Assembly (NCBI RefSeq): GCF_036379615.1
Contig: NZ_DASVGJ010000060.1
Location: forward strand, 105,310-169,309
DNA: 64,000 bases
Source of the DNA: Brachybacterium sp.
Lineage (GTDB): Bacteria; Actinomycetota; Actinomycetes; Actinomycetales; Dermabacteraceae
Reading direction: 5' to 3'
Below are positions 1 through 60,124 of this stretch, in pieces. The stretch's first letter is position 1. Every line of letters begins with the position of its first letter. The notes beneath the pieces are model-generated. The model had not been told where the DNA came from, made no database searches, and was given only the letters and a program-made list of their open reading frames with translations. The translations under genes were made by a program, and so were the position numbers.

Positions 1-2
1 TC

Positions 3-326
<324 letters not shown>

Positions 327-356
327 TCCGCCGCCGGTCGACGTGCTGCGAGCTAG

Positions 357-465
357 CGAGCGGCAGGAGACCGGTACAGGGATTCCCGCCTCACGGCTGA
401 CTCCTGCCGCTCGTACCCGAGCGCATGACGGGCCCCGATCCTCTCCGGAGGGTCGGGGCCCGTCG
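357..465 (+). terminator. Double hairpin after groEL (also repeat copy 1)
   Basis: 13-bp stem 357-369/401-413, then 17-bp stem 427-443/448-464 (one G-U pair, loop TCCG); lies between convergent groEL and tetR. Confidence 0.8.
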
Positions 466-1104
466 TCATGTCCGGGGGATCGGGGGTCCGGCCGGCCGTT
501 CGTGACGCGCCTGCGCCGTCCAGCCCGCCGCGCGGTCCATGACCGTGCGGTGCAGGTCCTCGAAGGCGGCATCGGCGTGCTCCTCGTCCCCCGTCACGAG
601 CAGCTCGGCCATGAGGCCGCGGAGCGCGCTGAGCACCCAAGCGGACATCGCGGCGGCCTCGTCCGCCGGGCAGCCCGCGCGCGCGACCCCTGCCGCGAGA
701 GCCTGCGCGCGTTCGCCCATCGAGCGCGCGACGGCGGCCCGGACCGCGGTCTCGGAGTACATCGAGATGCCGGTGAGCTCGACGAAGAGCCGCACGTGCT
801 GCCGGCCGTGCGGGGTGCGGGCCCGCTCCCAGATGTCTCGCAGGGGATCGGGGCGATTGTCTGCCTCGAGGTCGGGCAGGCTCAGGGCGCGGGCGATCGC
901 CGCGTCGACGACCTCCGCCACGAGCGCCTCCCGATTCGAGAAGTGGTGCAGCAGCGTCGCATGGCTGATCCCCACCGATCGGGCGAGGGTGCGCAGGGAC
1001 AGCGATCCGACGCCGTGCTCGAGGACGTGTGCGGTCGCCGCGGCGACGATCTCGCCGCGACGGTGCTCGAAACGGCGACGTCGGCCGTCGATGTGATCGG
1101 TCAT
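466..1104 (-). CDS. TetR/AcrR-family transcriptional regulator
   Basis: MTDHIDGRRRRFEHRRGEIVAAATAHVLEHGVGSLSLRTLARSVGISHATLLHHFSNREAL is a TetR N-terminal HTH; ATG at 1104 within track ORF 466..2268. Confidence 0.9.
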   Translation of the reverse strand: MTDHIDGRRRRFEHRRGEIVAAATAHVLEHGVGSLSLRTLARSVGISHATLLHHFSNREALVAEVVDAAIARALSLPDLEADNRPDPLRDIWERARTPHGRQHVRLFVELTGISMYSETAVRAAVARSMGERAQALAAGVARAGCPADEAAAMSAWVLSALRGLMAELLVTGDEEHADAAFEDLHRTVMDRAAGWTAQARHERPAGPPIPRT

Positions 1105-1157
1105 GTCCCCCGTATACCACCGGATGCCGATCGCGGGACACCCCTGGCATCTGCCTA

Positions 1158-1169
1158 TACCGATCGGTA
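1158..1169. promoter_or_regulatory. Perfect 12-bp palindrome, candidate TetR operator
   Basis: TACCGATCGGTA in the divergent tetR/hydrolase intergenic region. Confidence 0.55.
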
Positions 1170-1245
1170 GAGTCACTTCTGGCGCGATGCAGCGCCCCCG
1201 GGACCGCCGGGCCATCCTCCCTCCACGAGCCACCGAGGAGACGTC

Positions 1246-2118
1246 ATGCACACACGCACCCGTCAGGTCAGCGCTCTGCTGGCAACCCTGATCGTCATGC
1301 TGGGAACCCTGTCGCTCACCCAGGCCTCGGCCCTGGCCGACAGCGGGCACCAACGGGGTCCCGATCCCACGCAGCAGAGCATCGAGGCCACGCGCGGCAG
1401 CTTCGACATCGACTCCACCAGGGTGTCCTCGCTGAGGGTCCGCGGCTTCGGCGGCGGCACCATCTATTACCCGACGTCCACGGCGGAGGGGACCTTCGGG
1501 GCGGTCGTCATCTCTCCGGGGTACACGGCGGGCCAGTCGAGCATCGCGTGGATGGGCCCCCGCTTCGCCTCCCAGGGCTTCGTGGTCTTCACGATCGACA
1601 CCAACTCCCGCTACGACCAGCCCTCCTCGCGAGGCGATCAGCTGCTGGCCGCCCTGGACTATCTCACCGACAGCAGCGCCGTCAGCGACCGCATCGACCC
1701 CCAGCGCCTGGCCGTGATCGGGCACTCCATGGGCGGGGGCGGGACCCTCGAGGCCGCGAAGGATCGGCCCGAGCTGAAGGCCGCCGTGGCGATGACCCCG
1801 TGGAACCTCGACAAGTCCTGGCCGGAGATCTCGACCCCCACCCTCGTGGTCGGCGCGCAGAACGACTCGGTCGCCTCCGTGCGCACCCACGCCGTGCCGC
1901 TGTACGAGGGGATCCCGGAATCGACCGACAAGGCCTACCTGGAGCTGCGTGGCGCCTCGCACCTGGCGCCGAACCGTTCGAACACGAGCATCGCGAGCAC
2001 CAGCATCGCCTGGCTCAAGCGATTCGTGGATGACGACGTCCGCTACGATCAGTTCGTCTGCCCCGGACCGCAGACGGGCCTCACCTGGAGCGATGCCAGG
2101 TCCACCTGCCCGTTCTGA
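1246..2118 (+). CDS. Secreted cutinase / PETase-like polyester hydrolase (alpha/beta hydrolase, Streptomyces lipase/Thermobifida cutinase family)
   Basis: Signal peptide; PGYT oxyanion loop; GHSMGGGG nucleophile; TPW; QNDS acid; ASHLAPN His; C-terminal CPGP...STCPF cysteine pair; RBS GAGGAG. Confidence 0.93.
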   Translation: MHTRTRQVSALLATLIVMLGTLSLTQASALADSGHQRGPDPTQQSIEATRGSFDIDSTRVSSLRVRGFGGGTIYYPTSTAEGTFGAVVISPGYTAGQSSIAWMGPRFASQGFVVFTIDTNSRYDQPSSRGDQLLAALDYLTDSSAVSDRIDPQRLAVIGHSMGGGGTLEAAKDRPELKAAVAMTPWNLDKSWPEISTPTLVVGAQNDSVASVRTHAVPLYEGIPESTDKAYLELRGASHLAPNRSNTSIASTSIAWLKRFVDDDVRYDQFVCPGPQTGLTWSDARSTCPF

Positions 2119-2144
2119 CCCCGCGTCAGCCGGCGGTGACGCGC

Positions 2145-2239
2145 GCGGCAGGAGGTGATCCCGCCTCAGGGATGACTCCTGCCGCTCGCCCCGAGCGTTC
2201 GACGGGCCCCGATCCTCTCCGGAGGGTCGGGGCCCGTCG
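2145..2239 (+). repeat. Direct-repeat copy 2 of the post-groEL double hairpin; probable terminator of the hydrolase gene
   Basis: 2201-2239 is identical to 427-465 (39 bp); the upstream GCGGCAGGAG...CTCCTGCCGC stem is also conserved. Confidence 0.85.
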
Positions 2240-2266
2240 CTGTGCTCGACCGGGCACGATGTGTTC

Positions 2267-2725
2267 ATGACCTATGAGCTCCAGGAATCGATCATCGTCC
2301 CCGCCACCACGCAGGAGGTCCACGCGCTGGTCAGCGACGTCACCCGCACGGGGGAGTGGAGTCCGCAGTGCCACCGCTGCGAGTGGGAGGACGAGCGGCG
2401 CGGGAAGGGCGCCCGCTTCGTCGGGCACAACCGCACCCCGCAGCGGGAGTGGGAGACGGTCTCCGAGGTGATCGCGGACGTCCCCGGTGAGCACTTCGCG
2501 TGGTCCGTCGGCCCGGGCCGCGCCGAGTGGGGGTACCGGATGCGTCCGGTCGACGGCGGCACCGAGCTCACCGAGTACACGCGCACCACGCCGTCCTTCG
2601 AGGCGGTCTTCGCCGAGCGGTACGGAGATCGCGCGGAGGAGGAGATCCAGGTGCGCCACGAGGCCGCGCGCACCGGGATCCCCGCCACGCTCGAGGCGAT
2701 CCGGGGCGTGCTCGCGAACGGCTGA
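2267..2725 (+). CDS. SRPBCC (START/polyketide cyclase-like) family protein
   Basis: IIVPATTQEVHALVSDVTRTGEWSPQC...GARFVGHN...FAW...WGY pattern typical of actinobacterial SRPBCC proteins. Confidence 0.85.
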   Translation: MTYELQESIIVPATTQEVHALVSDVTRTGEWSPQCHRCEWEDERRGKGARFVGHNRTPQREWETVSEVIADVPGEHFAWSVGPGRAEWGYRMRPVDGGTELTEYTRTTPSFEAVFAERYGDRAEEEIQVRHEAARTGIPATLEAIRGVLANG

Positions 2726-3022: not shown

Positions 3023-3033
3023 ATGCGTATGCA
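3020..3033. promoter_or_regulatory. LacI-type operator, site 1
   Basis: TGTATGCGTATGCA matches palindromic consensus TGYATRCGYATRCA fully; overlaps the -10 and start. Confidence 0.7.
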
Positions 3034-4351
3034 CATGAGTTCACTGGACAAAGAGCTGCTCGGAGCGCGCGTCCGCGTCGTCAAGGAATCCGGCGTCCCG
3101 GATCGTTCGGCGCAGTCGGATCCCGAGGTGGAGGCGACCGTCTCCCGGATGCTCTCCGAGATCGAGGCCGAGGGCATGGATGCCGTGCGCCGCTACGCGC
3201 GCGAGCTCGACGGCGACCGCTCCGACAGCTTCCTGATCAGCTCCCCGCAGCTCGAAGCGGCGGGCGAGGAGCTCCCCGAGAGCCTCCGCGAGGCCCTCCG
3301 TGCGGGGGCCGAGCGCACCGGACGGTTCGCGACGTTGCAGCGTGAGCGGCTGCTCGACTTCGAAGAGGAGGTCGTCCCCGGGGTGGTCTGCGGTCAGCGG
3401 CACATCCCGGTCCAGAGCGTGGGCGCGTACCTGCCAGCGGGCCGTTTCCCACTGCTGGCCAGTGCCTTCATGACTGTCGGCGTGGCGGGCGTCGCCGGGG
3501 TGCCGAACCTCGTGGCCTGCACGCCGCCGAGCCGGGACGGCGTTGCGCACCCCGCGGTGCTCTACGCCGCGCACCTCTCCGGGGCCGAGCAGGTCTACGC
3601 GCTCGGAGGGGTCCAGGCGCTCGCCTCGATGGCCTTCGGTCTGCTCGACGCACCGCCGTCGGACCTGATCGTCGGCGCCGGCAACGCCTATGTCGCCGCC
3701 GCGAAGCGGCAGTTGTTCGGCCAGGTCGGGATCGACGTGCTCGCCGGTCCCTCCGAGGTGGCGGTCATCGCCGACGACTCCGCCCCCACCGAGATGGTCG
3801 CCGCCGATCTCCTCGGACAGGCCGAGCACGGACCGACCTCGCCCGCGTGTCTGGTGACCACCTCGGAGCGGATCGCCGCGGAGATCGAGGAGGAGATCGC
3901 ACGCCAGCTGGAGGGGCTCGACACCGCGAGCATCGCCGGTGCCGCCTGGCGGGACTTCGGCTCCGTTTACCTCGCCGAGGACCGGCGTGCCGCCGTCGAC
4001 ATCATGAACCTGCTCGCTCCGGAGCACCTCGAGGTGCTCGCCGAGGACCTCGACTGGTATCTGGAGAACCTCACGAGCTACGGCTCCCTCTTCCTCGGGC
4101 CCTGGTCCACGGTCGCCTATGCGGACAAGGGGATGTCCGGGACCAATCACGTCCTGCCCACCGGCCGCAACGCGCGCTTCACCGGCGGGCTGTCCGTGGC
4201 GGGCTTCATGAAGTGCGTGACCTACCAGCGCGCGACGAAGGAGGCCACGGCGACACAGGCCGAGCCCGTCGTGACCATCTCGGAGTTCGAGGGGATGCCC
4301 GCGCACCGGGACTCCGCCGCGCTCCGCCTCCGCATGCTCCGCTCCGGCTGA
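3029..4351 (+). CDS. Histidinol-dehydrogenase-family NAD-dependent dehydrogenase 1 (HpsN-like, probably non-biosynthetic)
   Basis: GAYLPAG, GAGNAYV, AGPSE, DLLGQAEHG, PEHL, ADKGMSGTNHVLPT motifs; start could be 3023, 3029 or 3035. Confidence 0.9.
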   Translation: MHMSSLDKELLGARVRVVKESGVPDRSAQSDPEVEATVSRMLSEIEAEGMDAVRRYARELDGDRSDSFLISSPQLEAAGEELPESLREALRAGAERTGRFATLQRERLLDFEEEVVPGVVCGQRHIPVQSVGAYLPAGRFPLLASAFMTVGVAGVAGVPNLVACTPPSRDGVAHPAVLYAAHLSGAEQVYALGGVQALASMAFGLLDAPPSDLIVGAGNAYVAAAKRQLFGQVGIDVLAGPSEVAVIADDSAPTEMVAADLLGQAEHGPTSPACLVTTSERIAAEIEEEIARQLEGLDTASIAGAAWRDFGSVYLAEDRRAAVDIMNLLAPEHLEVLAEDLDWYLENLTSYGSLFLGPWSTVAYADKGMSGTNHVLPTGRNARFTGGLSVAGFMKCVTYQRATKEATATQAEPVVTISEFEGMPAHRDSAALRLRMLRSG

Positions 4352-4421
4352 CCGCCGGGCACTCGATGTTCCGGGCCGCACCCGCGGTTCGCCGTCTCAC
4401 AACGCAGTGAAGGACAGCGAC

Positions 4422-5756
4422 ATGACAGTGCACTCCATCCTCCCCTCCGCCACCCGCCGCGCCGCTCTGGCGGGGCTAGGCCTGGCAGGGCTCGCGGGCC
4501 TCACGGCCTGCGGGGCCGGCTCCCGCAACCCTGCCGAGCAGGCGGCGAAGGTCGCCTGCGAGGTGCCGCAGCCGGACTCGGCCGTCACCATCAACGTGCT
4601 CGCCTACAACTCCTCGTCGATCGACCCGTTCACCAATACGCTGGTAAACAGTTGCACGTCGGGGAACATCACGCTTCGGCACGAGCCGATCGACTTCGCG
4701 GGACAAGTGCAGCGCACCCAGGCGACGCTCGCGGGCGAGACAGGCACGTACGACATCATTGAGACGTACAGCTTCGTGATCCCCCAGTTCGGGGACGAGG
4801 GCACTGTCGTCGGCCTGAACCAGTACCTGGAGGAGTTCGGCGAGGCGTACGGTCTCGACGCGCTGAGCGACGCGATGCTCGAGGCGATGACCTACGACGG
4901 CGAGCTCTACGCCCTGCCGATGCAGGCGCAGATGCACCTCATGGCGTACCGCCAGGACATCTTCGATGAGCTGGGCCTCGAGGCGCCCGCCACCTTCGAG
5001 GAGCTGAGAGCGGCGGCAAAGGCGATCCAGGAGGCGGGGGAGATCGAGCACCCGATCGCCATGCCGCTCAAGGCCGATGCCGATCTCGCCACCGCCTACG
5101 ACATGGCGCTGGGCAGCCTTGGGGTGGATATGACCGACGCGGAGGGGACGACGGGGAACTTCGACGCCCCCGAGGCCGCGCAGGCCTTCGAGGAGCTGAT
5201 GTCGCTCATCCCCTACATGGATCCGGAGGTCACGACCTTCGACCAGCCGTCCGTTCAGCAGCAGATGTACAACGGCACAGCCGCCATCGCGATCATGTTC
5301 TCGGGGCGCATGAACGACCTCACCATGGAGTCGAACACCGAGCTCGCTCCGCAGTTCGCGTTTGCCCCGCCGCCCACCGTCGTCGAGGGCGGGCACTACT
5401 TCGCCTCGCTCTCCGTGGACGGCTGGTCGATCCCGACCAACGCGTCGACTGACAAGGCCTCGCTGTTCCAGATGATCGCCTCATCGCTGAGCGAGGAGGC
5501 GTCCCGGGAGGCCGTTCCGGCCGCGTACCCCGCCCGCGAGGGCATGGTCGACGAGGACTCGAGTCCGTACGCCGTCGCCGCGAACACGACGATCGAGGAC
5601 GTCCCGCCCTCGGAGCCGTACCCCTGGACGGCAGAGCTCACGAACGCGATCACGCCGCTCATCGCGAGCGTCTTCCTCGAGCAGGTCTCCGTCGAGGACG
5701 GCCTGTCCCAGATGCAGACCACGAGCGCGGACCTGCTGGCCGCGTACTCGGGCTGA
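4422..5756 (+). CDS. Carbohydrate (CUT1) ABC transporter substrate-binding lipoprotein, Tat-type signal
   Basis: TRRAAL twin-Arg, lipobox LTAC, YALPMQAQMHLMAYRQDIF and APATFEEL motifs. Confidence 0.9.
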   Translation: MTVHSILPSATRRAALAGLGLAGLAGLTACGAGSRNPAEQAAKVACEVPQPDSAVTINVLAYNSSSIDPFTNTLVNSCTSGNITLRHEPIDFAGQVQRTQATLAGETGTYDIIETYSFVIPQFGDEGTVVGLNQYLEEFGEAYGLDALSDAMLEAMTYDGELYALPMQAQMHLMAYRQDIFDELGLEAPATFEELRAAAKAIQEAGEIEHPIAMPLKADADLATAYDMALGSLGVDMTDAEGTTGNFDAPEAAQAFEELMSLIPYMDPEVTTFDQPSVQQQMYNGTAAIAIMFSGRMNDLTMESNTELAPQFAFAPPPTVVEGGHYFASLSVDGWSIPTNASTDKASLFQMIASSLSEEASREAVPAAYPAREGMVDEDSSPYAVAANTTIEDVPPSEPYPWTAELTNAITPLIASVFLEQVSVEDGLSQMQTTSADLLAAYSG

Positions 5757-5792
5757 GCGCCGGAGCGCGACGATGGCGAAGGAAGGTGACGC

Positions 5793-6662
5793 ATGAGGCG
5801 TCGGGAGTACGCAGTGCTCGTCGCACCCAGCATGATCGTAATGTTCGGCCTCCTGGCCCTCCCGCTGCTGCGCACGCTCCAATGGAGCTTCCAGCGCGTG
5901 GACTACGGGCAGCCGGGCACCTGGGTCGGGCTGACGAACTACACCTCCGCGCTGGGGGATCCCCGGTTCCTCCGGGCGATCGGTTTCACGATCGGGCTCA
6001 CGGCGGCCACGTTCGTGGTGGTGGTGCTGATCGCATACGTGCTGGCGGTGCTGGTGAATCAGCTCGGTCGGATCCGTCCGCTGGTGCTGGGAACGCTGCT
6101 GGTGAGCTACGTGGTCCCCCAGGTGATCGGGGCGACGATGTTCGGATGGCTGTTCAACCCCAGCTTCGGCGGGGTCGCGAACCATCTGCTCACGCTGGTG
6201 ACCGGCGAGGACGTCCTATGGCTCACCGAGGCCTGGCCCAACCGTCTGCTGCTGCTCCTGTCCGTGGCCTGGGGCCTGATCCCTTTCGCGATGCTCGTCA
6301 TACTCGCAGGTCTGCAAGGAGTCCCAGAGGAGATGCTCGAGGCCGCGGAGCTCGACGGCGTCTCCACCCTCCAGCTCCATCTGAAAGTCATCGTCCCGAC
6401 CATCCGGGGCGTGCTCGGCTTCGTCTCGCTGATCCTGATCATGGATGTGCTGCGAGTCTTCGATCAGCTCATTCCCCTGTCCCCGCAGGCGGTCCAGATC
6501 GGGAACGAGTCCGCGATGCTTTACATCTACAACATCGCCTTCCGCGACGGCGGCCAGCAGCTGGGGCTGGGCAGCGCCGTCAACATCCTCCTGATCGTCG
6601 TCATCTTCATCCTCCTGCTCCCGTTCCTGCGCGGAACGGCGAAGGAAGGGGCCCGCGCATGA
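5793..6662 (+). CDS. Sugar ABC transporter permease (MalF-like)
   Basis: Multiple TM segments; EAA loop LQGVPEEMLEAAELDG. Confidence 0.93.
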   Translation: MRRREYAVLVAPSMIVMFGLLALPLLRTLQWSFQRVDYGQPGTWVGLTNYTSALGDPRFLRAIGFTIGLTAATFVVVVLIAYVLAVLVNQLGRIRPLVLGTLLVSYVVPQVIGATMFGWLFNPSFGGVANHLLTLVTGEDVLWLTEAWPNRLLLLLSVAWGLIPFAMLVILAGLQGVPEEMLEAAELDGVSTLQLHLKVIVPTIRGVLGFVSLILIMDVLRVFDQLIPLSPQAVQIGNESAMLYIYNIAFRDGGQQLGLGSAVNILLIVVIFILLLPFLRGTAKEGARA

Positions 6663-7543
6663 GCTCGACCCGTCCCGCGAGGCAGAGGAACGCGGCCTCA
6701 GGGCGCCGACGGCGCGCAGGCGGCGCAGGAGGAGTGAAGCGCCTGCTGATCGGCATGTTCCTGCTGCTGTTCTGCCTGATGATGCTGTCCCCGGTGCTGT
6801 GGACGCTGGCGTCGGTCACCAAGCCGACCAACGTCGCCTTCCTGAACCCACCCGTCTTCACCTGGATTCCCACCCTGCAGGCGTTCGTCGACCTGTGGCA
6901 GACGACGAACTTCTACCTCGACCTCCTCAACACCGTCATCGTGGCGGTCGCCTCGACGATCGCCGCGCTGGTGCTCGGGATCCCGGCGGCGTACGCGCTC
7001 TCGCGCTTCCCCGGCTGGATCTCCGCCCTGCTCCTGGTGGTCGCCCTGATCTTCCGCGCGCTGCCGCGGTTCTCGATCCTGCTGCCGATGTATGACCTCG
7101 CACAGCAGCTGGGCATCTACGACACCCGCTTCGCGGTGGGGGCGGCGCTGGTCGCGATCAACCAGCCGTTCTCCATCTGGCTGCTGCGCAACTTCTTCGC
7201 CGAGATCCCGAGCTCCCTCGACGAGGCGGCGATGATCGACGGATGCAGTCGCTTCCAGACCCTGCTGCGCGTGATGATCCCGCTCATGGGGCCGGGGATC
7301 CTCACCGCCGGGATCTTTATGTTCCTGTTCGCGTTCCAGGAGTACCTCACGGCCGTCATCCTCAGCAACGTCGACGCCCGGACCGTCCCGGTGTTCATCG
7401 CGACTCAGCTGGGCCAGACTCTGCCCATGCTCCAGCAGGCGGGGGCGGCGTCGGTGCTGCTCACGCTGCCCGTGATCGCCTTCGCACTGATCGCGCAGAA
7501 GTACATGGTCGCCGGCCTCAACGCCGGATCGGTGAAGGGATGA
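6659..7543 (+). CDS. Sugar ABC transporter permease (MalG-like)
   Basis: ATG 6659 overlaps the previous stop (ATGA); EAA loop FFAEIPSSLDEAAMIDG. Confidence 0.93.
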   Translation: MSSTRPARQRNAASGRRRRAGGAGGVKRLLIGMFLLLFCLMMLSPVLWTLASVTKPTNVAFLNPPVFTWIPTLQAFVDLWQTTNFYLDLLNTVIVAVASTIAALVLGIPAAYALSRFPGWISALLLVVALIFRALPRFSILLPMYDLAQQLGIYDTRFAVGAALVAINQPFSIWLLRNFFAEIPSSLDEAAMIDGCSRFQTLLRVMIPLMGPGILTAGIFMFLFAFQEYLTAVILSNVDARTVPVFIATQLGQTLPMLQQAGAASVLLTLPVIAFALIAQKYMVAGLNAGSVKG

Positions 7544-7568
7544 GGCGTCAGCGGGGGAGGAGCCGACG

Positions 7569-8261
7569 GTGACCGCGGAGATCCCCGTCGTCCTCCTGCC
7601 GGGGATGAACTGCACCCCACGGCTCTGGGCGCCCGTCCTGCCCGCGCTGCGGGGGCGCACCGTCCACCACGGCGAGCTCCTCGGTGCCTCGCTCGAGCAG
7701 TGCGTGGAGAACCTGCTGGCCGTGCTCCCGGAGCGCTTCGCCCTGGCGGGGCTGAGCCTCGGAGGGATCGTCGCCATGGCGCTGCTGCGCACGGCGCCGG
7801 AGCGCGTCGACAGGCTCTGCCTGCTGGACACGAACGCTCGCGCGCCCGAACCCGTGCAGCTCGCGGCCTTCGCGCGTCAGCGCCGGAGGCTGGCGACCGG
7901 CGCCAGCGCTCAGGAGGTGCAGAGGGAGCTGCTGGACGTGCTCGTCCATCCTCGGCATCTGTCCCGGCTCGGGCGCGAGGTGGTCCGGATGGGGGAGGAG
8001 ACCGGCGTCGACAGCCTCGCCCAGCAGTACGCGATCCAGGGCACGCGCCGGGACGAGCGCGATCATCTGCCCGGCATCGGGGTTCCGGTCTCCGTCGTTG
8101 CGGGCCGGGACGATGCGCTCTGTCCGCCGGAGCGGCACGAGGAGATCACGGCCCTGGTGCCCGACGCCACCCTCCGGCTCATCCCGCGCACCGGGCACCT
8201 GTCCCCCCTGGAGAGCCCGACCGAGGTCGCGAAGTCGCTGGTGGCCTGGTTGGAGCGCTGA
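7569..8261 (+). CDS. Alpha/beta-fold hydrolase
   Basis: LLPGMNC, GLSLGG nucleophile elbow, GRDD, GHLSPLE; RBS GGGGAGG. Confidence 0.9.
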   Translation: MTAEIPVVLLPGMNCTPRLWAPVLPALRGRTVHHGELLGASLEQCVENLLAVLPERFALAGLSLGGIVAMALLRTAPERVDRLCLLDTNARAPEPVQLAAFARQRRRLATGASAQEVQRELLDVLVHPRHLSRLGREVVRMGEETGVDSLAQQYAIQGTRRDERDHLPGIGVPVSVVAGRDDALCPPERHEEITALVPDATLRLIPRTGHLSPLESPTEVAKSLVAWLER

Positions 8262-8296
8262 GAGCACCCCTCCGGGCGGCGCTGCCCGCCCTGTTC

Positions 8297-9034
8297 TCAG
8301 CGATCTGACCTGGCCAGTCGGGAGAAGCTCGCCATCATGTGTGCTGCGAGGTTGTGGACGATCAGGCGGCAGCCCTGGGCAGAGGCAGCGTCAGCGCCGC
8401 CGAGGGTGGAGACGATGTCGGTCCGGACCGCGCCGGCCTCCCGACCGGCCCGATGCACCGCGTCCGTCAGCTGCGCGAGCGTACGGGTCTCCGCCTCGTC
8501 GTGGGCCAGGGCGAAGGCGAGGTCCCCGGGCCCGATCATGTACCCGTCGACCCCGGGGGTGGCGAGGATCGCCGGAGCGGCGTCCACGGCGGCGGGGGAC
8601 TCGAGCATCACCAGCAGGAGATGGTCCTCGGCGGCGGCGGCGTGCTCCTCGGCCGAACGGGTGCCGAACCGCCCGGCGCGCGTGTAGGTGGCGATGCCCC
8701 TCTCGCCCTGCGGGGGATAACGGGCCCAGCGCACCGCCTCCGCCGCGCCGGCCGGGTCGTCGATGTGCGGGACCACCGCACCGGCGGCGCCGAGGTCGAG
8801 AGCGCGCTGGATGACGTGGGGGTCGCGCTCACCGGGCCGGACCAGCACCGGCAGGCCGTGCACCTGTGCCAGGGCGAGGTGGTGCTTGAGCGCCGTGGCG
8901 TCGTGCGGGCCGTGCTCGAGGTCCAGCACCAGGAAGTCCAGGCCGGCCACCGCGAGCATCTCCACGGTGTCCTCCGCGGGCATCCTCAGCAGTGCTCCGT
9001 GCAGCGAGGAGGAGATGCTCACCAGCTCCCTCAT
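8297..9034 (-). CDS. HpcH/HpaI-family aldolase
   Basis: DFLVLDLEHG, ALDLGAAGAVVPHI, RYPPQGERG, MLES, IGPGDL; ATG at 9034 coupled to the SDR stop. Confidence 0.9.
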   Translation of the reverse strand: MRELVSISSSLHGALLRMPAEDTVEMLAVAGLDFLVLDLEHGPHDATALKHHLALAQVHGLPVLVRPGERDPHVIQRALDLGAAGAVVPHIDDPAGAAEAVRWARYPPQGERGIATYTRAGRFGTRSAEEHAAAAEDHLLLVMLESPAAVDAAPAILATPGVDGYMIGPGDLAFALAHDEAETRTLAQLTDAVHRAGREAGAVRTDIVSTLGGADAASAQGCRLIVHNLAAHMMASFSRLARSDR

Positions 9035-9825
9035 GCGACCATCCCCGCGGAGAGGTCCACGTCCGCCCCCGTCATCCCAGGCATGCCGAGGATCGAGTGC
9101 ACCGCGCCGGCGACCTCCTCCGGGGTGACCATGCGCCCCAGAGCGGCACGCCCGACGAAGGCCTGACGGGCCTCCTCCGGCGTGATGCCGCGGCGTCTCG
9201 CCTCGGCCCGGTAGTTGTGCTCCATGCGCTCGCTCTCCACGGGGCCGGGGGACAGTGCGTTCACGCGCACACCCCCGCGCCCCGCCTCGAAGGCGAGCGT
9301 GGAGGTCAGGCCCAGCACGGCCATCTTGGAGGCGCAGTACGGGGTGCGACCCTCGAGAGGGCGCTTGCCGGAGACGGAGGCCAGGTTGATGATGTCGCCC
9401 GCGCCGCGGCGCATCATCCCGGGGAGCAGGGCACGGCACATGAGGAACGTGCCCCGCACGTTGACGGCGAAGACCTCGTCCCACTCCTCCGGATCGATGT
9501 CGACGAGATCTGCGACGGGGCCGCCGATCCCGGCGTTGTTGACGAGGATCGAGACGTCCTCGTCCCTGAGCCGCTCGGCAAGCGCTGTGACGTCCTCCGG
9601 GGAGGAGACGTCGCAGGGGGCGGGGAGCACGGCGCCGGGGTGCACGGCGGCGAGCTCTTCGAGCGGTGCCGGCCGACGGCCGACGGCGATCACGCGAGCG
9701 CCCGAGCGCACCAGGCGCGCGGCGATCGCCCGTCCCAGCCCGGTGCCGGCGCCGGTCACCACGGCCGTCCGGTCGGCGAGGTCCTCGGTGCCTGCGTGCT
9801 CGCCCGAATCCGTGCCTGTGACCAT
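9031..9825 (-). CDS. Short-chain dehydrogenase/reductase (SDR)
   Basis: TGAGTGLG Rossmann motif, NNAG, NLAS, YCASK catalytic YxxxK. Confidence 0.95.
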   Translation of the reverse strand: MVTGTDSGEHAGTEDLADRTAVVTGAGTGLGRAIAARLVRSGARVIAVGRRPAPLEELAAVHPGAVLPAPCDVSSPEDVTALAERLRDEDVSILVNNAGIGGPVADLVDIDPEEWDEVFAVNVRGTFLMCRALLPGMMRRGAGDIINLASVSGKRPLEGRTPYCASKMAVLGLTSTLAFEAGRGGVRVNALSPGPVESERMEHNYRAEARRRGITPEEARQAFVGRAALGRMVTPEEVAGAVHSILGMPGMTGADVDLSAGMVA

Positions 9826-9828
9826 GCC

Positions 9829-11148
9829 TCAGCCCTCGGCCTTCGCCGCGGTGATCCAGTCGACGGGGTCTCCGCCGTGCAGGTGGGCGCGCAGGTCCCC
9901 GGAGCGTGCATGGCCCTCGAACCGCTCGACGCGCGCGGCGCGCCCGCACAGCCGTCCGAGCTCGGCGCTGGTCCGCGGAGAGGTGACCTCCTGGTACGTG
10001 ACCGTCTTGAGGTACTTCCCGACCCACAGGCCGCCGGTGTAGCGGGCGGCGCCGCGGGTGGGCAGCACATGGTTGGTGCCGATGACCTTGTCCCCGTAGG
10101 AGACGCACGTGTTCTCACCGAGGAACAGCGCACCGTAGTCGTGCAGGCGCTCCAGTGCCTGTCGCGGCTCGGCGGTCATGACCTGGACGTGCTCGGCGGC
10201 GTTCTGGTCCGCGAGATGCCACAGCTCGTCCATGTCCTCGGCGATCTCGATGCGCCCGTGGTCGCGCCAGGCCGGGCCGGCCATGTCGCGGGTGGGCATG
10301 TCCACCAGGAGCCGCTCGACGATCTCGAGCACCTCTGCGGCCTGGGCCTCGTCCGTGGTGATCAGGACGGCAGGGGAGTCGGGGCCATGCTCTGCCTGGG
10401 AGAGGAGGTCGACGGCGATGGTGAACGGGTCCGCCGTGCCGTCGGCGAGGATGAGCACCTCTGTCGGGCCGGCGAAGAGGTCGATGCCCACCTCGCCGAA
10501 CAGGAGGCGCTTCGCCTCGGCGACGAAGGCGTTCCCGGGGCCCGCCAGCAGATTCACCGGCGCGATGGTCTCGGTGCCCACGGCGAGGGCGGCCACCGCC
10601 TGCACGCCGCCCAGGACGTAGATCTCGTCGGCACCGGCGCTGCGCATGGCGGCGATCGTCGCCGCCGGGATCTCGCCCATGATCGGAGGGGTCGCCGCAG
10701 CCACCCGCTCGACGCCGGCGACCTTCGCGGTCACGATCGTCATGTGCGCGGAGGCGGTGAGCGGATAACGACCTCCCGGGACGTAGGAGCCGGCGCTCCG
10801 GATCGGAACGTGCGTGTGTCCGAGGAGCACCCCGGGCTGGGTCTCGATCTCGAGGTCCGTGAGCGTCCCGCGCTGCGCCTGCGCGAACTGCCTGACGGAG
10901 GCCTGCACAGTGCCGATGTCCTCGAGCGTCTGCGCGCTCAGCGGCGCGATGATCCGCTCGATTTCCTCGTCCCCCAGGCGGAACGAGTCGGGGGACCACG
11001 AATCGAACCGCTCCGAGTACCGGCGGACCGCCTCGTCTCCGTTGCTGCGGATGTCCTCGATGATCTCCTGGACGCGACCGGAGAGCTCGCGGGCCTCCGT
11101 GCGGCCGCTCCCACCCTCACCCGTGGCGGCCTTGAGCACCTTCACCAT
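9829..11148 (-). CDS. Histidinol-dehydrogenase-family dehydrogenase 2 (HpsN-like)
   Basis: YVPGGRYP, GPGNAFV, AGPTE, DLLSQAEHG, AEHV, YGDKVIGTNHVLPT, EGH; RBS AAGGAGG. Confidence 0.92.
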   Translation of the reverse strand: MVKVLKAATGEGGSGRTEARELSGRVQEIIEDIRSNGDEAVRRYSERFDSWSPDSFRLGDEEIERIIAPLSAQTLEDIGTVQASVRQFAQAQRGTLTDLEIETQPGVLLGHTHVPIRSAGSYVPGGRYPLTASAHMTIVTAKVAGVERVAAATPPIMGEIPAATIAAMRSAGADEIYVLGGVQAVAALAVGTETIAPVNLLAGPGNAFVAEAKRLLFGEVGIDLFAGPTEVLILADGTADPFTIAVDLLSQAEHGPDSPAVLITTDEAQAAEVLEIVERLLVDMPTRDMAGPAWRDHGRIEIAEDMDELWHLADQNAAEHVQVMTAEPRQALERLHDYGALFLGENTCVSYGDKVIGTNHVLPTRGAARYTGGLWVGKYLKTVTYQEVTSPRTSAELGRLCGRAARVERFEGHARSGDLRAHLHGGDPVDWITAAKAEG

Positions 11149-11165
11149 CAGTACACTCCTCCTTT

Positions 11166-11179
11166 GGCATGCGCATGCA
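11166..11179. promoter_or_regulatory. LacI-type operator, site 2 (between divergent hisD-like 2 and lacI)
   Basis: GGCATGCGCATGCA, 13/14 match to TGYATRCGYATRCA; core GCATGCGCATGC is a perfect palindrome. Confidence 0.65.
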
Positions 11180-11257
11180 TGAAGTGCGGCAAGTGTGCCC
11201 GAGGTAGGCTCGGGGCGTCAAGGGGGCGGAGGCCTCTCGTTGCGAGGAGCAGGGGTG

Positions 11258-12271
11258 ATGATGGTCAGCAGCAAGGATGTCGCGCGCCTCGCAGGGGTCT
11301 CCCAGCCCACCGTCTCCCGGGCCCTGCGCGGAGACCCTCGCCTGACCGAGGCCACGAAGCAGAAGGTGCGCAGCGCGGCCGAGCAGCTCGGGTACTCGCC
11401 CAACGCCTTCGGTCGCGCCCTGGCGACCGGGCGCTCCACGCGCGTGGGCCTGCTCGTCACGGATCTCGACAACCACTTCTTCATCAACGTCCTCGCGGCG
11501 ATCCATGACGAGCTGGGTGGGAGTGGCCACGAGATGATCCTGCTGACGGAGTCCTCCGGGGCGGACGGGATCGAGGCGCGGGTCTCCTCCTTGGGGCTCG
11601 GTGGCGTCATCCTGGCGACCACGACGACCGCCTCGCTGCTGCCGATCCGGCTCGCGGACCGATCGATCCCGTTCGTCTACTTCAACCGCGTCTCGGAGCT
11701 GGTGGCCGCGGATTCTGTGCAGGTGGATCCCGAGGTCGGCCTCGGCGAGCTCGCGGCCGCCCTGGCGGAGCTCGGGCACGAGCAGGTCGGGGCGGTGCTC
11801 GGCCCCAGCAACACGAGCACGGGCGTGGCCCGGGAGTTCGCGCTGCGGCGGGCGCTCGCCGCTCATGGCCTGACGCTCCGCGATGAGAGCACCCGTCGCG
11901 GCGACTTCTCCGTGGAGTGCGGGAACCTCCTCGCCGGGGAGCTGCTCGACGCAGAGCGGCGCCCGTCGGTGATCGTCTGCGGGAACGACGACGTCGCCCT
12001 GGGGGCCCTGAACGCCGCGGCGGCCCGGGGTCTGAGGGTGCCCGAGGACGTGTCCGTGGTGGGCTTCGATGATCTGCCGACGGCGAGCTGGCCGATCGTG
12101 CAGCTGACGACCGTCCGCTACGACCTCGAGGGGATGGCCCGGGCGGCGGCTCGGGCGATGGTGCGACGGATGGAGAGTGTGCCGGGCGCCGAGGTTGAGC
12201 TCGAAGCCGTCGTGCTTCCCAGCTCGCTGGTGCGCCGACGCAGCCTCGGCGTCGCGCCCACCCGTTCCTGA
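11258..12271 (+). CDS. LacI-family transcriptional regulator
   Basis: SSKDVARLAGVSQPTVSRAL HTH, LGYSPN hinge, CGNDDVALG, SVVGFDD; start 11258 or 11261. Confidence 0.95.
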   Translation: MMVSSKDVARLAGVSQPTVSRALRGDPRLTEATKQKVRSAAEQLGYSPNAFGRALATGRSTRVGLLVTDLDNHFFINVLAAIHDELGGSGHEMILLTESSGADGIEARVSSLGLGGVILATTTTASLLPIRLADRSIPFVYFNRVSELVAADSVQVDPEVGLGELAAALAELGHEQVGAVLGPSNTSTGVAREFALRRALAAHGLTLRDESTRRGDFSVECGNLLAGELLDAERRPSVIVCGNDDVALGALNAAAARGLRVPEDVSVVGFDDLPTASWPIVQLTTVRYDLEGMARAAARAMVRRMESVPGAEVELEAVVLPSSLVRRRSLGVAPTRS

Positions 12272-22938: not shown

Positions 22939-23805
22939 TCAGACCAGGAAGATCGGGATCAGCCCGGGGTTGTGCGCGTGGACGATCGCGAGGAAGACCA
23001 CCACGTCGAACAGCAGGTGCACGATCAGCACGTACAGCAGGGACCCGGTGCGGGTGAAGAGCCAGCCCTGCAGCAGTGCGAACGGAGCGGTGAGCAGGGG
23101 CCCCCATTCCTGGTAGCCGAGCTCCCACAGGAAGGACACGAAGATGGTCGCCTGCAGGAGGTTGGCCGTCCAGAGCCCGAAGTGGCGGCGCAGCAGCGCG
23201 AAGCAGGTGCAGATGAAGAACAGCTCGTCCCACGTGCCCACGAAGTTCACGCCCACGAAGAAGCGACCCAGCGCCCCGGCGTCGGTGATGTGGGGCCAGT
23301 TCTCGTAGGCGCCCGAGGTGATGAAGTAGTAGGGCAGCAGCAGCCAGCCCAGCACCGGGACGGCGATGAGATATCCCCACTGCCAGCGGTTCCACGGCTG
23401 CCCGGAGAGCCACGGGAAGCGGATCGCCCGGCGTCGCAGGAGCAGGCGGTCCACCAGCAGCGGCAGGGTGACGGCGAGGATCAGCACGGTGCCGATGGTG
23501 AAGAACCGGTCCCAGTCCACGTCCGCCTTCACCGAGGTGACCGAGACGACGGCGATGCCGAGGCCGATCAGGGACAGGTCCTTGCCCAGCTCCCGCGAGA
23601 CCAGGAACGCGCCGAGCAGGCTGAGCGCGAGCAGGCCGTGCCCCCAGCCGGCGAGCTGGAGCCCGAACAGCAGGAAGGCAGAGAGGGACACACCGAGGGC
23701 TGGCAGCAGACCGATCCGCGGGGTGGGCTGCGGAGCGGACGGCGCGGAGGACTGCGGCGGGGTCGATGCGGTCGGTTCAGCGGCGGGAGGGGGCGGCGTC
23801 GCCAT
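22939..23805 (-). CDS. CPBP/Abi-family intramembrane protease-like protein
   Basis: Multi-TM; variant motifs WDELFF, QATIFVSFLWE, HLLFD. Confidence 0.7.
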   Translation of the reverse strand: MATPPPPAAEPTASTPPQSSAPSAPQPTPRIGLLPALGVSLSAFLLFGLQLAGWGHGLLALSLLGAFLVSRELGKDLSLIGLGIAVVSVTSVKADVDWDRFFTIGTVLILAVTLPLLVDRLLLRRRAIRFPWLSGQPWNRWQWGYLIAVPVLGWLLLPYYFITSGAYENWPHITDAGALGRFFVGVNFVGTWDELFFICTCFALLRRHFGLWTANLLQATIFVSFLWELGYQEWGPLLTAPFALLQGWLFTRTGSLLYVLIVHLLFDVVVFLAIVHAHNPGLIPIFLV

Positions 23806-60096: not shown

Positions 60097-60124
60097 CGGC
60101 GGCAGGTCGGCCACAATGGTGGCC

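What the first reader, a model, noticed from the sequence alone, without database searches (positions are those of the whole stretch)
1246..2118. Secreted PETase/cutinase-type enzyme with Leu at two substrate-cleft positions
Seen: complete Ser-Asp-His triad, PGY oxyanion Tyr, GHSMG Met, TPW Trp and one C-terminal disulfide pair. Established: this is the type I polyester hydrolase architecture of Thermobifida cutinases and LCC. From recall, those carry HFAPN after the catalytic His and HAxPFY upstream; here the motifs are SHLAPN and THAVPLY. Leu after the His resembles the highly active PHL7/PES-H1 and the F243 site engineered in LCC. Inference: a natural PET/PCL hydrolase variant worth assaying. 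A Brachybacterium polyesterase has been reported, so it may be an orthologue rather than new.
Basis: partly seen in the sequence, partly recalled or inferred. Interest (0 to 1): 0.68.

Follow-up and report, generated by a model that had tools for sequence, protein, structure and literature searches.

The report
Secreted cutinase-type polyesterase, BgP orthologue
The gene encodes an ordinary secreted cutinase-like polyester hydrolase, 87% identical to a sequence that matches the published Brachybacterium enzyme BgP; it naturally carries two Phe-to-Leu changes at sites that engineers mutate to speed up PET breakdown, and it sits with its own TetR regulator in a small inserted cassette.

Summary
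Window 1246-2118 (+) is an intact 290-aa ORF. It has a Sec-type signal peptide, the triad Ser161/Asp207/His239, Tyr93 and Met162 for the oxyanion hole, Trp186 and one C-terminal Cys pair.

It matches Pfam PETase (PF12740) at 387 bits, and its model superposes on solved type I polyester hydrolases (TM 0.96).

An alignment with PDB-verified sequences shows:
- Leu240 = TfCut2 F209 = LCC F243 = PHL7 L210.
- Leu219 = TfCut2 F188 = LCC F222 = IsPETase I218, the second-shell residue behind the "wobbling" Trp.

The enzyme is not new in kind. It is 87% identical to P0002, which matches every published residue of BgP (Brachybacterium ginsengisoli) and has both Leu. BgP was tested only on tributyrin, PCD and PCL plates.

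The His-Leu/Leu combination occurs in 5 of the 120 closest homologues. Both positions vary across the wider family.

New here:
- A divergent TetR gene and an ACC-N4-GGT palindrome are conserved next to the gene in several actinobacterial genera.
- The 1.8-kb pair is an insertion between groEL and an SRPBCC gene, bracketed by a duplicated groEL terminator hairpin.

PET activity remains untested. Interest is modest.

The parts
1246..2118 (+). Coding sequence of the secreted type I cutinase-like polyesterase (290 aa, stop codon included)
   Evidence: ORF. Pfam PF12740 at 386.7 bits. PDB hits at E = 1e-114. AlphaFold model with pLDDT 88.8. Foldseek TM 0.96.
1246..1338 (+). Sec/SPI-type signal peptide, residues 1-31 (MHTRTRQ / VSALLATLIVMLGTLSL / TQASALA, then DSG)
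   Evidence: A basic n-region, a 17-residue hydrophobic core and Ala-Leu-Ala at positions -3 to -1 are read from the sequence. There is no Cys lipobox and no twin arginine. Residues 1-31 have pLDDT below 50. SignalP placed the cleavage at 31/32 in BgP (PMC9039725). No predictor was run here.
1235..1240 (+). Shine-Dalgarno-like GAGGAG, 5 nt before the ATG
   Evidence: Read from the sequence.
1726..1731 (+). Codons for nucleophile Ser161 and oxyanion Met162 (GHSMG)
   Evidence: They align with TfCut2 S130/M131.
1864..1866 (+). Codon for catalytic Asp207
   Evidence: It aligns with TfCut2 D176.
1900..1902 (+). Codon CTG for Leu219, the second-shell residue behind Trp186 (TfCut2 F188, LCC F222, PHL7 F189, IsPETase I218)
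   Evidence: Alignment. The role of this position is described in PMC10076380 and PMC10080609 and PMC12767270.
1960..1965 (+). Codons for catalytic His239 and Leu240 (TfCut2 H208/F209, PHL7 H209/L210, LCC H242/F243)
   Evidence: Alignment.
466..1104 (-). Divergent TetR-family regulator (212 aa), the probable repressor of the polyesterase gene
   Evidence: Pfam TetR_N at 38.2 bits. Homologues lie in the same divergent position in 10 other loci from at least 6 genera. The gap between the two start codons is 141 bp.
1155..1172 (.). Candidate TetR operator CTATACC-GATC-GGTAGAG. Its right half overlaps a TAGAGT hexamer that resembles a -10 element.
   Evidence: Palindrome found. An ACC-N4-GGT core is conserved in every TetR-polyesterase intergenic region examined. 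TACC-N4-GGTA occurs only once in the 64 kb.
384..465 (+). Upstream copy of the 82-nt direct repeat. It holds the groEL/TetR terminator hairpin at 426-465.
   Evidence: RNA fold of 380-470: -59.4 kcal/mol, z = -6.0 on the + strand, and z = -4.7 on the - strand.
2159..2239 (+). Downstream copy of the direct repeat. It holds the hairpin at 2200-2239, the probable terminator of the polyesterase gene. A degenerate remnant of the groEL 3' end precedes it.
   Evidence: RNA fold of 2137-2245: -81.3 kcal/mol, z = -7.7.
1..326 (+). 3' end of groEL (GGM-repeat tail), the left border of the insertion site
   Evidence: Translation. Cpn60 occupies the same position in L082-L084 (Pfam PF00118). In L086 a 547-aa product with no Pfam hit on record holds that position, and its 3' end carries the same GGCATGATGTGA tail.
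2267..2725 (+). SRPBCC (Polyketide_cyc2) gene, the right border of the insertion site. It is not part of the module.
   Evidence: Pfam. It lies directly after groEL in relatives that lack the module.

Best explanation
The gene encodes a Sec-secreted, mesophilic, type I cutinase-like polyester hydrolase of the PETase family (PF12740). It is the orthologue, in another Brachybacterium lineage, of the published polyesterase BgP.

After cleavage behind Ala31, the 259-residue mature enzyme (about 27.8 kDa, calculated pI 5.2) is predicted to work as follows:
- It uses the triad Ser161-Asp207-His239.
- The backbone amides of Tyr93 and Met162 form the oxyanion hole.
- Tyr93 and Trp186 clamp the acyl or aromatic part of the substrate in subsite I.
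- A Cys272-Cys288 disulfide ties down the C-terminus.

Two positions that are Phe in most relatives are Leu here:
- Leu240, next to the catalytic His, lines subsite II as L210 does in PHL7. By analogy it should loosen substrate binding and speed turnover.
- Leu219 packs behind Trp186 together with His215. It should give that Trp somewhat more freedom at some cost in thermal stability.

The natural substrates are most likely plant cutin or suberin and other aliphatic esters. Hydrolysis of PCL and tributyrin is expected. PET hydrolysis at moderate temperature is plausible but unproven.

Expression is probably repressed by the divergent TetR protein, which would bind the palindrome at 1155-1172. 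The two genes form a 1.8-kb accessory cassette inserted between groEL and an SRPBCC gene.

What is shown: the sequence, the fold, the residue mapping, the synteny and the insertion. What is inferred: the substrates, the effect of the two Leu, and the repression.
For: Family and fold:
- Pfam PETase at 386.7 bits against a cut-off of 28.
- 190 PDB sequences match, the best at E = 1e-114.
- The AF2 model has pLDDT above 90 for 229 residues.
- Foldseek gives TM 0.96 and rmsd 1.3-1.5 A to 1jfr, 8xho, 7qjo and 7nei.

Residue mapping:
- All catalytic and subsite residues map onto PDB-verified TfCut2, PHL7, LCC and IsPETase.
- Type I features are present: His160 rather than Trp, Ala204/Ala241 in place of the second IsPETase disulfide, and no 3-residue loop insertion.

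Orthology to BgP:
- 87% identity to P0002, which matches 20 of 20 published BgP residues and the AFA-AD cleavage site. The window protein matches 19 of 20.
- P0002's contig starts and ends in the same hairpin repeat.
- BgP cleared tributyrin, PCD and PCL (PMC9039725).

Effect of the Leu residues, from the literature:
- PHL7 L210 is the main contributor to activity, and L210F halves it.
- LCC F243 substitutions, including F243L in combination, are beneficial.
- H184S/F188I boosts TfCut2, and the His/Phe pair restrains the Trp and supports stability above 60 C.

Regulation:
- TetR_N domain.
- The divergent arrangement has a 141-bp gap, within the under-200-bp rule (PMC3511530).
- The TetR neighbour is conserved in Brachybacterium, Promicromonospora, Kineococcus, a Kineosporiaceae MAG, Nocardioides and Microbacterium.
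- The ACC-N4-GGT palindrome is conserved.

Insertion:
- An 82-nt direct repeat brackets the pair.
- Empty sites, with groEL, one hairpin and then SRPBCC, occur in L082-84 and L086.
Against: - No activity data exist for this protein, and PET hydrolysis has not been reported even for BgP.
- The host is a mesophile. Asn187 replaces the His of thermophilic enzymes, and there is no extra disulfide. The enzyme may therefore unfold well below the PET glass transition and perform poorly on PET.
- His215 is retained, so Leu219 alone may not free Trp186. The published gain came from the Ser/Ile double change, and the H185S single change harmed PHL7.
- The NCBIfam BHET-hydrolase equivalog score is below its cut-off.
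- No sigma-70-type promoter or T-rich terminator was detected by the simple scans.
- Transcription is not demonstrated. There is only one 161-nt contig in one run that was guessed to be RNA.
- P0002 is identified as BgP from the published residue list, not from the deposited sequence ON000823.1, which was not available here.
Confidence: 0.85

Rival explanations
1. It is simply a secreted lipase or cutinase for natural lipids, with no useful activity on aromatic polyesters. On this reading the two Leu are neutral drift in a mesophilic lineage and have no functional meaning.
For: - The best structural match is the Streptomyces exfoliatus lipase 1JFR (67% identity, TM 0.96).
- Database names for the homologues are generic: lipase, dienelactone hydrolase, alpha/beta hydrolase.
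- Both positions vary widely among 128 family representatives. Position 219 is F in 71, L in 14, I in 12 and M in 10. Position 240 is F in 47, G in 15, L in 12 and S in 9.
- BgP was shown only on aliphatic substrates.
Against: - Most characterised members of this clade with the same subsite residues show at least some PET or BHET hydrolysis. Examples are MtCut, PET40, Cut190, TfCut2 and ScLipA (titles; PMC11169514).
- Mutational data show that the residue after the catalytic His directly controls the PET rate.
- The His-Leu/Leu state is fixed in four related sequences that differ by 13-18% elsewhere.
Confidence: 0.3
2. It is a dedicated BHET or oligomer esterase of the Streptomyces LipA/BdeA type rather than a polymer-active enzyme.
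For: The best NCBIfam hit is NF051441, bis(hydroxyethyl) terephthalate hydrolase, at 477.8 bits over nearly the full length. Many homologues carry that name in UniRef.
Against: - The score is below the curated equivalog cut-off of 520.
- ScLipA has a Tat signal (PMC11169514), whereas this protein has a Sec-type signal without a twin arginine.
- The BdeA name itself rests on a promiscuous activity.
- PCL clearing by BgP shows activity on a polymer.
Confidence: 0.1
3. The flanking repeat is not the footprint of an insertion. On this reading the ancestral state held two hairpins, and relatives lost the TetR-polyesterase pair by recombination between them.
For: - Recombination between two 82-nt direct repeats would regenerate exactly the single-hairpin empty site seen in L082-84 and L086.
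- The BgP-like lineage shares the two-hairpin structure.
Against: - The downstream copy carries a degenerate remnant of the groEL 3' end. This is what a duplication at insertion would leave.
- B. phenoliresistens and the non-Brachybacterium genera carry the pair in other contexts without the hairpin.
- No read or contig skipping about 1774 nt was seen in four metagenome runs.
- Either way the pair is an accessory unit, so this rival changes the direction of the event but not the description.
Confidence: 0.3

Closest known systems
BgP, cutinase-like polyesterase of Brachybacterium ginsengisoli B129SM11 (PMC9039725; GenBank ON000823.1)
   Same: - Same genus-level clade.
- 290 aa with signal-peptide cleavage at 31/32 and identical mature numbering.
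- Shared residues: Tyr62, Ser130, Met131, Trp155, Val178, His208, Leu209, Cys241 and Cys257, plus Leu188, which the paper did not remark on.
- 87% identity to the BgP-like sequence P0002.
- The same TetR neighbour and the same flanking hairpin.
   Different: - About 13% of residues differ. Examples are Ser in place of Thr160 and a cleavage site of ALA-DS in place of AFA-AD.
- The window sequence turns up in soil, phyllosphere, compost and chicken-gut metagenomes, whereas BgP came from a deep-sea sponge isolate.
- The deposited BgP sequence itself could not be fetched here.
PHL7 / PES-H1 (PDB 7NEI, 7CUV)
   Same: Type I fold, with TM 0.96, rmsd 1.5 A and 61% identity. Leu follows the catalytic His directly (L210 = Leu240). 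This residue was shown to be the main reason for PHL7's high PET activity.
   Different: - PHL7 keeps Phe189 where this enzyme has Leu219.
- It has Phe63 rather than Tyr93, Leu93 rather than Tyr123, and His157 rather than Asn187.
- Its motif is HLVSN rather than HLAPN.
- PHL7 is thermostable (Tm 79 C), whereas this enzyme comes from a mesophile and its stability is unknown.
TfCut2 and LCC (PDB 4CG1, 4EB0)
   Same: Same architecture and identical numbering of the triad after removal of the signal peptide (S130/D176/H208). There is one C-terminal disulfide, and 56% and 53% identity respectively.
   Different: Both have Phe at the two positions (F188/F209 and F222/F243). Engineering replaces them (F243I/T/L, F222I, H184S/F188I) to raise activity. 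This enzyme has aliphatic residues there naturally.
IsPETase (type IIb; PDB 5XJH, 6EQE)
   Same: An aliphatic residue sits at the position behind the wobbling Trp (Ile218 versus Leu219), and the residue after the catalytic His is not aromatic (Ser238 versus Leu240).
   Different: This enzyme lacks Ser214 (it has His215), Trp159 (it has His160), the second disulfide C203-C239 and the extended loop. Identity is 47%.
MtCut (Marinactinospora thermotolerans; 7QJO, 8XHO, 9J8I) and Streptomyces exfoliatus lipase (1JFR)
   Same: These are the closest solved structures by sequence (E = 1e-114 to 1e-113, 64-67% identity) and by fold (TM 0.96).
   Different: 7QJO and the engineered MtCutM9 (9J8I), whose alignments were printed, have Phe at both positions: THSIPFY and THAIRFY, then SHFAPN and DHFAPN. 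The residues of 1JFR and 8XHO at these positions were not read here.

Membership tests
PETase family (Pfam PF12740), type I bacterial cutinase-like polyester hydrolases | Family profile matched above the curated threshold over the full length | tested here: met
   386.7 bits against a cut-off of 28. Residues 31-289 match profile positions 3-263 of 263.
PETase family (Pfam PF12740), type I bacterial cutinase-like polyester hydrolases | Alpha/beta-hydrolase fold superposable on solved members | tested here: met
   AF2 model with pLDDT 88.8. Foldseek TM(target) is 0.93-0.97 and rmsd 1.3-1.6 A to 1jfr, 7qjo, 7nei and 4cg1.
PETase family (Pfam PF12740), type I bacterial cutinase-like polyester hydrolases | Ser-Asp-His triad within GHSMG, oxyanion Tyr/Phe plus Met, and the clamp Trp | tested here: met
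   Ser161, Asp207, His239, Tyr93, Met162 and Trp186 all align with the reference residues. These columns are nearly invariant in the 120 closest homologues.
PETase family (Pfam PF12740), type I bacterial cutinase-like polyester hydrolases | Type I rather than type II: a single C-terminal disulfide, His before the nucleophile, and no extended beta8-alpha6 loop | tested here: met
   Cys272 and Cys288 are the only Cys pair. His160 is present. Ala204 and Ala241 stand where IsPETase has C203 and C239. There is a 3-residue gap opposite the IsPETase loop.
PETase family (Pfam PF12740), type I bacterial cutinase-like polyester hydrolases | Secretion signal | tested here: met
   The n, h and c regions and the ALA-DS site were found by inspection. 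Residues 1-31 are disordered in the model. SignalP was reported for the orthologue BgP. No signal-peptide predictor was available here.
PETase family (Pfam PF12740), type I bacterial cutinase-like polyester hydrolases | Measured hydrolysis of PET or other polyesters | not testable with these tools
   This needs expression and assay. Only BgP plate assays on tributyrin, PCD and PCL exist (PMC9039725).
BgP orthologue group (Brachybacterium) | High identity and shared diagnostic residues with BgP | tested here: met
   86.9% identity to P0002. P0002 fits 20 of 20 published BgP residues and the AFA-AD site, and the window protein fits 19 of 20.
BgP orthologue group (Brachybacterium) | Same genomic position | tested here: inconclusive
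   The P0002 contig holds TetR plus the polyesterase, and it begins and ends in the same hairpin. It is only 1731 bp long, so the outer neighbours are unseen.
NCBIfam NF051441, bis(hydroxyethyl) terephthalate hydrolase BdeA (equivalog) | Score at or above the curated equivalog cut-off | tested here: not met
   477.8 bits against a cut-off of 520. The protein is therefore not filed as BdeA.
PHL7/PES-H1-like enzymes (Leu after the catalytic His) | Leu at the PHL7 L210 position | tested here: met
   Leu240 aligns with L210 in an ungapped column.
PHL7/PES-H1-like enzymes (Leu after the catalytic His) | Close kinship with PHL7 and its thermostability | tested here: not met
   Identity is 61%. Neighbouring residues differ (HLAPN versus HLVSN, Tyr93 versus Phe63, Asn187 versus His157). 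Thermostability is not testable here.
IsPETase-like (type IIb) enzymes | Ser214/Ile218 pair, Trp159, second disulfide and extended loop | tested here: not met
   The equivalents are His215, Leu219 and His160, with no second Cys pair and no loop insertion. Only the aliphatic residue at the 218 position is shared.
TetR-type divergent repressor and target pair | TetR_N helix-turn-helix protein, divergent orientation, and an intergenic gap under 200 bp | tested here: met
   TetR_N at 38.2 bits. The start codons at 1104 and 1246 are 141 bp apart. The rule comes from PMC3511530.
TetR-type divergent repressor and target pair | Conserved palindromic operator in the intergenic region | tested here: met
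   An ACC-N4-GGT core lies within CTNTACC-N4-GGTAGAG or TTGACC-N4-GGTAGAG in all 12 intergenic regions examined. This is evidence from sequence only.
TetR-type divergent repressor and target pair | Binding of the protein to the operator and release by a ligand | not testable with these tools
   This needs EMSA or a reporter assay.

The most novel reading that the evidence does not exclude
The natural combination of His215/Leu219 (a half-step towards the Ser/Ile pair of IsPETase) and Leu240 (as in PHL7) may make this Brachybacterium clade unusually fast on amorphous PET at 30-50 C without any engineering. The enzyme may also travel with a TetR sensor that responds to polyester or cutin breakdown products, as a small self-contained inducible cassette that moves between actinobacterial genomes without a recombinase of its own.
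Probability: 0.1. Interest if true: 0.6.

Novelty: new member of a known kind. Interest (0 to 1): 0.3.

Why it matters
For enzyme engineers, this clade is a natural experiment. It carries aliphatic residues at two positions that have so far been changed mainly by design (LCC F243 and F222, TfCut2 F188), in a mesophilic scaffold that keeps the stabilising His.

Back-mutation of L219F and L240F would separate the contribution of the second-shell residue from that of the neighbouring His. Published double mutants have not done this.

The family survey also corrects a statement in the literature that His/Phe is strictly conserved outside IsPETase (PMC10080609). Phe is replaced in 14 of the 120 close homologues and in 57 of 128 family representatives.

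For microbial ecology, the conserved TetR partner and operator offer a route to the still unknown natural inducers of these enzymes. The insertion footprint shows that the enzyme is an accessory trait in Brachybacterium.

None of this changes the basic picture: it is an ordinary member of a heavily studied family.

Tried and rejected
- Promoter and terminator scans of 900-2400 found nothing. These consensus models suit high-GC actinobacteria poorly, so the result was not used as evidence against expression.
- The first attempt to align the 150 representatives timed out. It was replaced by hmmalign.
- My first TetR translation was out of frame and was corrected.
- Exact look-ups of the SRPBCC product with either start codon, and of P0004, found no record.
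- I looked for an empty-site or excision joint in four metagenome runs. No contig skipped about 1774 nt. The groEL part is swamped by other organisms. Run X6 shows flank depth of 50-99 against module depth of 1-10, which is suggestive but cannot be resolved with short unitigs.
- For transcription evidence, one run guessed to be RNA gave a single 161-nt contig at 1243-1403. This is not conclusive.
- A literature search for Phe-to-Leu at the second-shell site (F188L, F222L, F189L) found no PET-hydrolase paper. Only F243L in LCC turned up.
The absence of other Brachybacterium species from its list is therefore not evidence that they lack the gene, and the window's own genome was not identified.
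- The model's coordinates are not exposed, so distances from Leu219 to Trp186 and from Leu240 to the ligand could not be measured. Placement of these residues rests on alignment to solved structures.
- Base composition gives no sign of foreign origin. GC is about 0.71 throughout, and the gene's GC3 of 0.90 matches its neighbours.
Full report
**1. The observation**

Window 1246-2118 (+) is an uninterrupted 290-codon ORF. It starts at an ATG 5 nt after GAGGAG. Its third-position GC is 0.90, like the surrounding genes.

- PGY at residues 91-93.
- GHSMG at 159-163.
- TPW at 184-186.
- NDS, with Asp207.
- THAVPLY at 214-220.
- SHLAPN at 238-243.
- Cys272 and Cys288.

The N-terminus reads MHTRTRQ-VSALLATLIVMLGTLSL-TQASALA, followed by DSG. 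This is a classical Sec signal with Ala-x-Ala, no lipobox Cys and no twin arginine. The structure model leaves residues 1-31 disordered.

**2. What it is**

The protein matches Pfam PETase (PF12740) end to end at 386.7 bits. It also matches 190 PDB sequences. The best are MtCut variants, cutinase 606 (7QJO), the Streptomyces exfoliatus lipase 1JFR and PET40, followed by PHL7/PES-H1, Cut190, TfCut2 and LCC.

An AlphaFold2 model built on 49 homologues has pLDDT above 90 for 229 residues. It superposes on these structures with TM 0.93-0.97 and rmsd 1.3-1.6 A.

I recalled the TfCut2, PHL7, IsPETase and LCC sequences from memory and used them only after the PDB search printed the deposited chains. 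One residue of my TfCut2 recall was wrong and was corrected.

In the resulting alignment the published numbering of every reference enzyme is reproduced. The window protein minus 31 residues has exactly the TfCut2 numbering: S130, D176, H208, W155, C241.

The enzyme is type I:
- His160 precedes the nucleophile.
- There is a single Cys pair.
- Ala stands where IsPETase has its second disulfide.
- The IsPETase loop insertion is absent.

**3. The two leucines**

Leu240 aligns with TfCut2 F209, LCC F243, PHL7 L210 and IsPETase S238. Leu219 aligns with TfCut2 F188, LCC F222, PHL7 F189 and IsPETase I218.

The literature gives the meaning of the two sites:
- In LCC, F243 is the site of the ICCG F243I change, and F243L/T/S/A have been explored (PMC12767270).
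- The other position is not a cleft-lining residue. The PHL7 authors place F189, together with H185, in a "second interaction sphere". The LCC study calls F222 "buried".
- It is the partner of the His that restrains the clamp Trp. IsPETase has Ser214/Ile218 there, which lets Trp185 wobble. H184S/F188I raises TfCut2 activity, while the His/Phe pair supports stability above 60 C.
- The window enzyme has His215/Leu219, which is half of that change.

Three other differences from thermophilic references are worth noting:
- Asn187 replaces His next to the Trp. IsPETase has Asp there.
- Tyr123 stands where PHL7 has L93 and LCC has F125.
- Val209 is shared with LCC V212.

**4. How unusual is it?**

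Among the 120 closest database homologues the state at positions 215, 219 and 240 is as follows:

| State (215-219 / 240) | Count |
|---|---|
| His-Phe / Phe | 103 |
| His-Leu / Phe | 9 |
| His-Leu / Leu | 5 |
| His-Phe / Leu | 1 |
| His-Phe / Tyr | 2 |

The five His-Leu/Leu sequences are:
- The window protein.
- Three relatives at 82-87% identity. One is named Brachybacterium sp. Z12. The other two are unnamed Logan sequences, one of which is the BgP match.
- One sequence at 68% identity.

Among 128 representatives at 50% identity with an aligned triad, the residues are:

| Position | Residue counts |
|---|---|
| 219 | F 71, L 14, I 12, M 10 |
| 240 | F 47, G 15, L 12, S 9 |

Each Leu is thus a normal minority state. 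The exact combination is confined to a small clade. The statement in PMC10080609 that His/Phe is strictly conserved outside IsPETase holds only for the characterised enzymes.

**5. Relation to the published Brachybacterium enzyme**

Carr et al. 2022 (PMC9039725) described BgP from B. ginsengisoli B129SM11. They reported:
- Signal-peptide cleavage AFA-AD at 31/32.
- The residues Tyr62, Ser130, Met131, Trp155, Val178, His208, Leu209, Thr160, Cys241 and Cys257.
- Clearing of tributyrin, PCD and PCL by recombinant E. coli.
- No PET assay. A 2023 review adds none.

Database protein P0002 fits all 20 published residues and the AFA-AD site. The window protein fits 19 and has ALA-DS at the cleavage site. 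The two are 86.9% identical.

The window therefore encodes an orthologue from a different lineage, not BgP itself. BgP (as P0002) has both Leu, but the paper remarks only on Leu209.

The NCBIfam equivalog for the Streptomyces BHET esterase BdeA is the best hit but falls below its cut-off (477.8 against 520). The protein should not be given that name.

**6. Surroundings**

The gene order is:
1. groEL 3' end, up to 326.
2. TetR-family gene, 466-1104 (-).
3. The polyesterase.
4. An SRPBCC gene, 2267-2725.
5. A block with two HisD-family genes, an ABC transporter, another alpha/beta hydrolase, an SDR and a LacI regulator.
6. DctPQM and an ECF transporter.

The TetR gene is divergent from the polyesterase, with 141 bp between the start codons. 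This falls within the "under 200 bp" rule for TetR repressors and their targets (PMC3511530).

A homologue of this TetR lies in the same position next to the polyesterase homologue in the following:
- B. phenoliresistens.
- Four Promicromonospora genomes.
- A Kineosporiaceae MAG.
- Kineococcus.
- Nocardioides flavescens.
- Microbacterium karelineae.

It was not detected (tblastn, E <= 1e-3) at that position in the Streptomyces loci fetched.

All these intergenic regions contain a palindrome with an ACC-N4-GGT core:
- Window: CTATACC-GATC-GGTAGAG at 1155-1172.
- Other Brachybacterium loci: CTCTACC-ACTC-GGTAGAG.
- Promicromonospora: TTGACC-ACTT-GGTAGAG.

TACC-N4-GGTA occurs once in the 64 kb. 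In Promicromonospora the left half coincides with a TTGACC hexamer that resembles a -35 element. In Brachybacterium the right half overlaps TAGAGT, which resembles a -10 element. I read this as the operator of a repressor that occludes the polyesterase promoter. This is an inference.

**7. An insertion footprint**

A Logan contig carrying the identical gene ends exactly at window 436 and 2239, which led me to check the flanks.

Window 384-465 and 2159-2239 are an 82-nt direct repeat. Its two ungapped segments are 93% and 94% identical, and a single gapped alignment gives 91.5%.

Each copy holds an 18-bp-stem hairpin. These are the only two copies in the window. The folding z-scores are -7.7 and -6.0.

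In related Brachybacterium contigs that lack the pair, groEL is followed by one copy of this hairpin and then directly by the SRPBCC gene. These contigs are L082-84 and L086; L086 carries the SRPBCC protein that NCBI assigns to B. vulturis.

The downstream copy in the window is preceded by a degenerate remnant of the last bases of groEL. The BgP-like contig L091 begins and ends inside the same hairpin. B. phenoliresistens carries the pair elsewhere, without the hairpin.

The 1.8-kb TetR-polyesterase pair is therefore an accessory cassette. It was inserted into the groEL-SRPBCC spacer with duplication of the terminator. Alternatively, and less likely, it was lost elsewhere by recombination between the repeats. 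Base composition is not deviant.

**8. Mechanism and verdict**

Shown:
- Family membership, fold and residue mapping.
- Orthology to a BgP-like sequence.
- The conserved regulator and palindrome.
- The insertion structure.

Inferred:
- Secretion via Sec.
- Activity on cutin-like and aliphatic polyesters.
- Measurable but probably modest PET hydrolysis at moderate temperature.
- A rate-enhancing role for Leu240.
- A flexibility-for-stability trade at Leu219.
- TetR repression relieved by a hydrophobic ligand.

The sequence occurs in soil, phyllosphere, compost and chicken-gut metagenomes, which fits a plant-litter lifestyle.

The finding is real and correctly read, but it is a new member of a well-known kind. 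It is worth an assay for people already working on PET hydrolases, and is otherwise ordinary.

Noticed in passing
window 384-465 and 2159-2239: An 82-nt direct repeat (two ungapped segments 93-94% identical; 91.5% as one gapped alignment) brackets the TetR-polyesterase pair. Each copy holds an 18-bp-stem hairpin. Relatives without the pair have groEL, one hairpin and then the SRPBCC gene. This is the footprint of a 1.8-kb insertion with duplication of the groEL terminator.
   Followed up: yes
window 1155-1172, and 1111-1121: The palindrome CTATACC-GATC-GGTAGAG has an ACC-N4-GGT core that is conserved in TetR-polyesterase intergenic regions of at least 6 genera. A second box, CGTATACCACC, lies next to the TetR start and is conserved in the four Brachybacterium-type loci. 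These are candidate operator and promoter elements.
   Followed up: partly
protein P0004 (Brachybacterium sp. Z12), compared with window 343-1400: The N-terminal 40 or so residues of this 280-aa homologue resemble the translation of the strand opposite the TetR gene. They are fused to the polyesterase from about residue 47, and the C-terminus ends in CSS rather than CPF. This looks like a deletion that removed the promoter and signal peptide, so the copy may be decaying. The contig could not be retrieved.
   Followed up: no
window 3023-12271: Two paralogous histidinol-dehydrogenase-family genes (3023-4351 + and 9829-11148 -) flank several other genes: an ABC transporter (binding protein plus two permeases), a further alpha/beta hydrolase (7569-8261), an SDR (9031-9825) and a LacI regulator (11195-12271). 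This looks like a catabolic cluster for an unidentified alcohol or sugar-like substrate, not histidine biosynthesis.
   Followed up: no
window 2726-22938, against L085, L082 and L086: The region downstream of groEL-SRPBCC is variable among relatives. In L086 the SRPBCC gene is followed directly by Rce1-like and luciferase-like genes, in L085 by DctPQM, and in L082 by an ECF transporter. The window holds all of these plus the HisD-type cluster, about 20 kb in total, before the Rce1-like gene at 22939-23844. This is a hot spot of nested insertions.
   Followed up: partly
window 60023-60097: tRNA-Leu (anticodon TAA) is the only RNA gene found in the window. Two long high-GC3 ORFs (57802-60318 - and 59990-60919 +) overlap it and are probably over-extended calls.
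   Followed up: no
window 267-320: A 9-nt tandem repeat encodes the (GGM)n C-terminal tail of GroEL. This is an ordinary feature, but it attracts reads from many organisms when metagenome runs are laid on the window.
   Followed up: no
window 1100-2300, in public runs: Near-identical sequence is present in soil, phyllosphere, compost and chicken-gut metagenomes. In run X6 the flanks are 5-50 times deeper than the cassette, which hints at co-occurring strains without it.
   Followed up: partly
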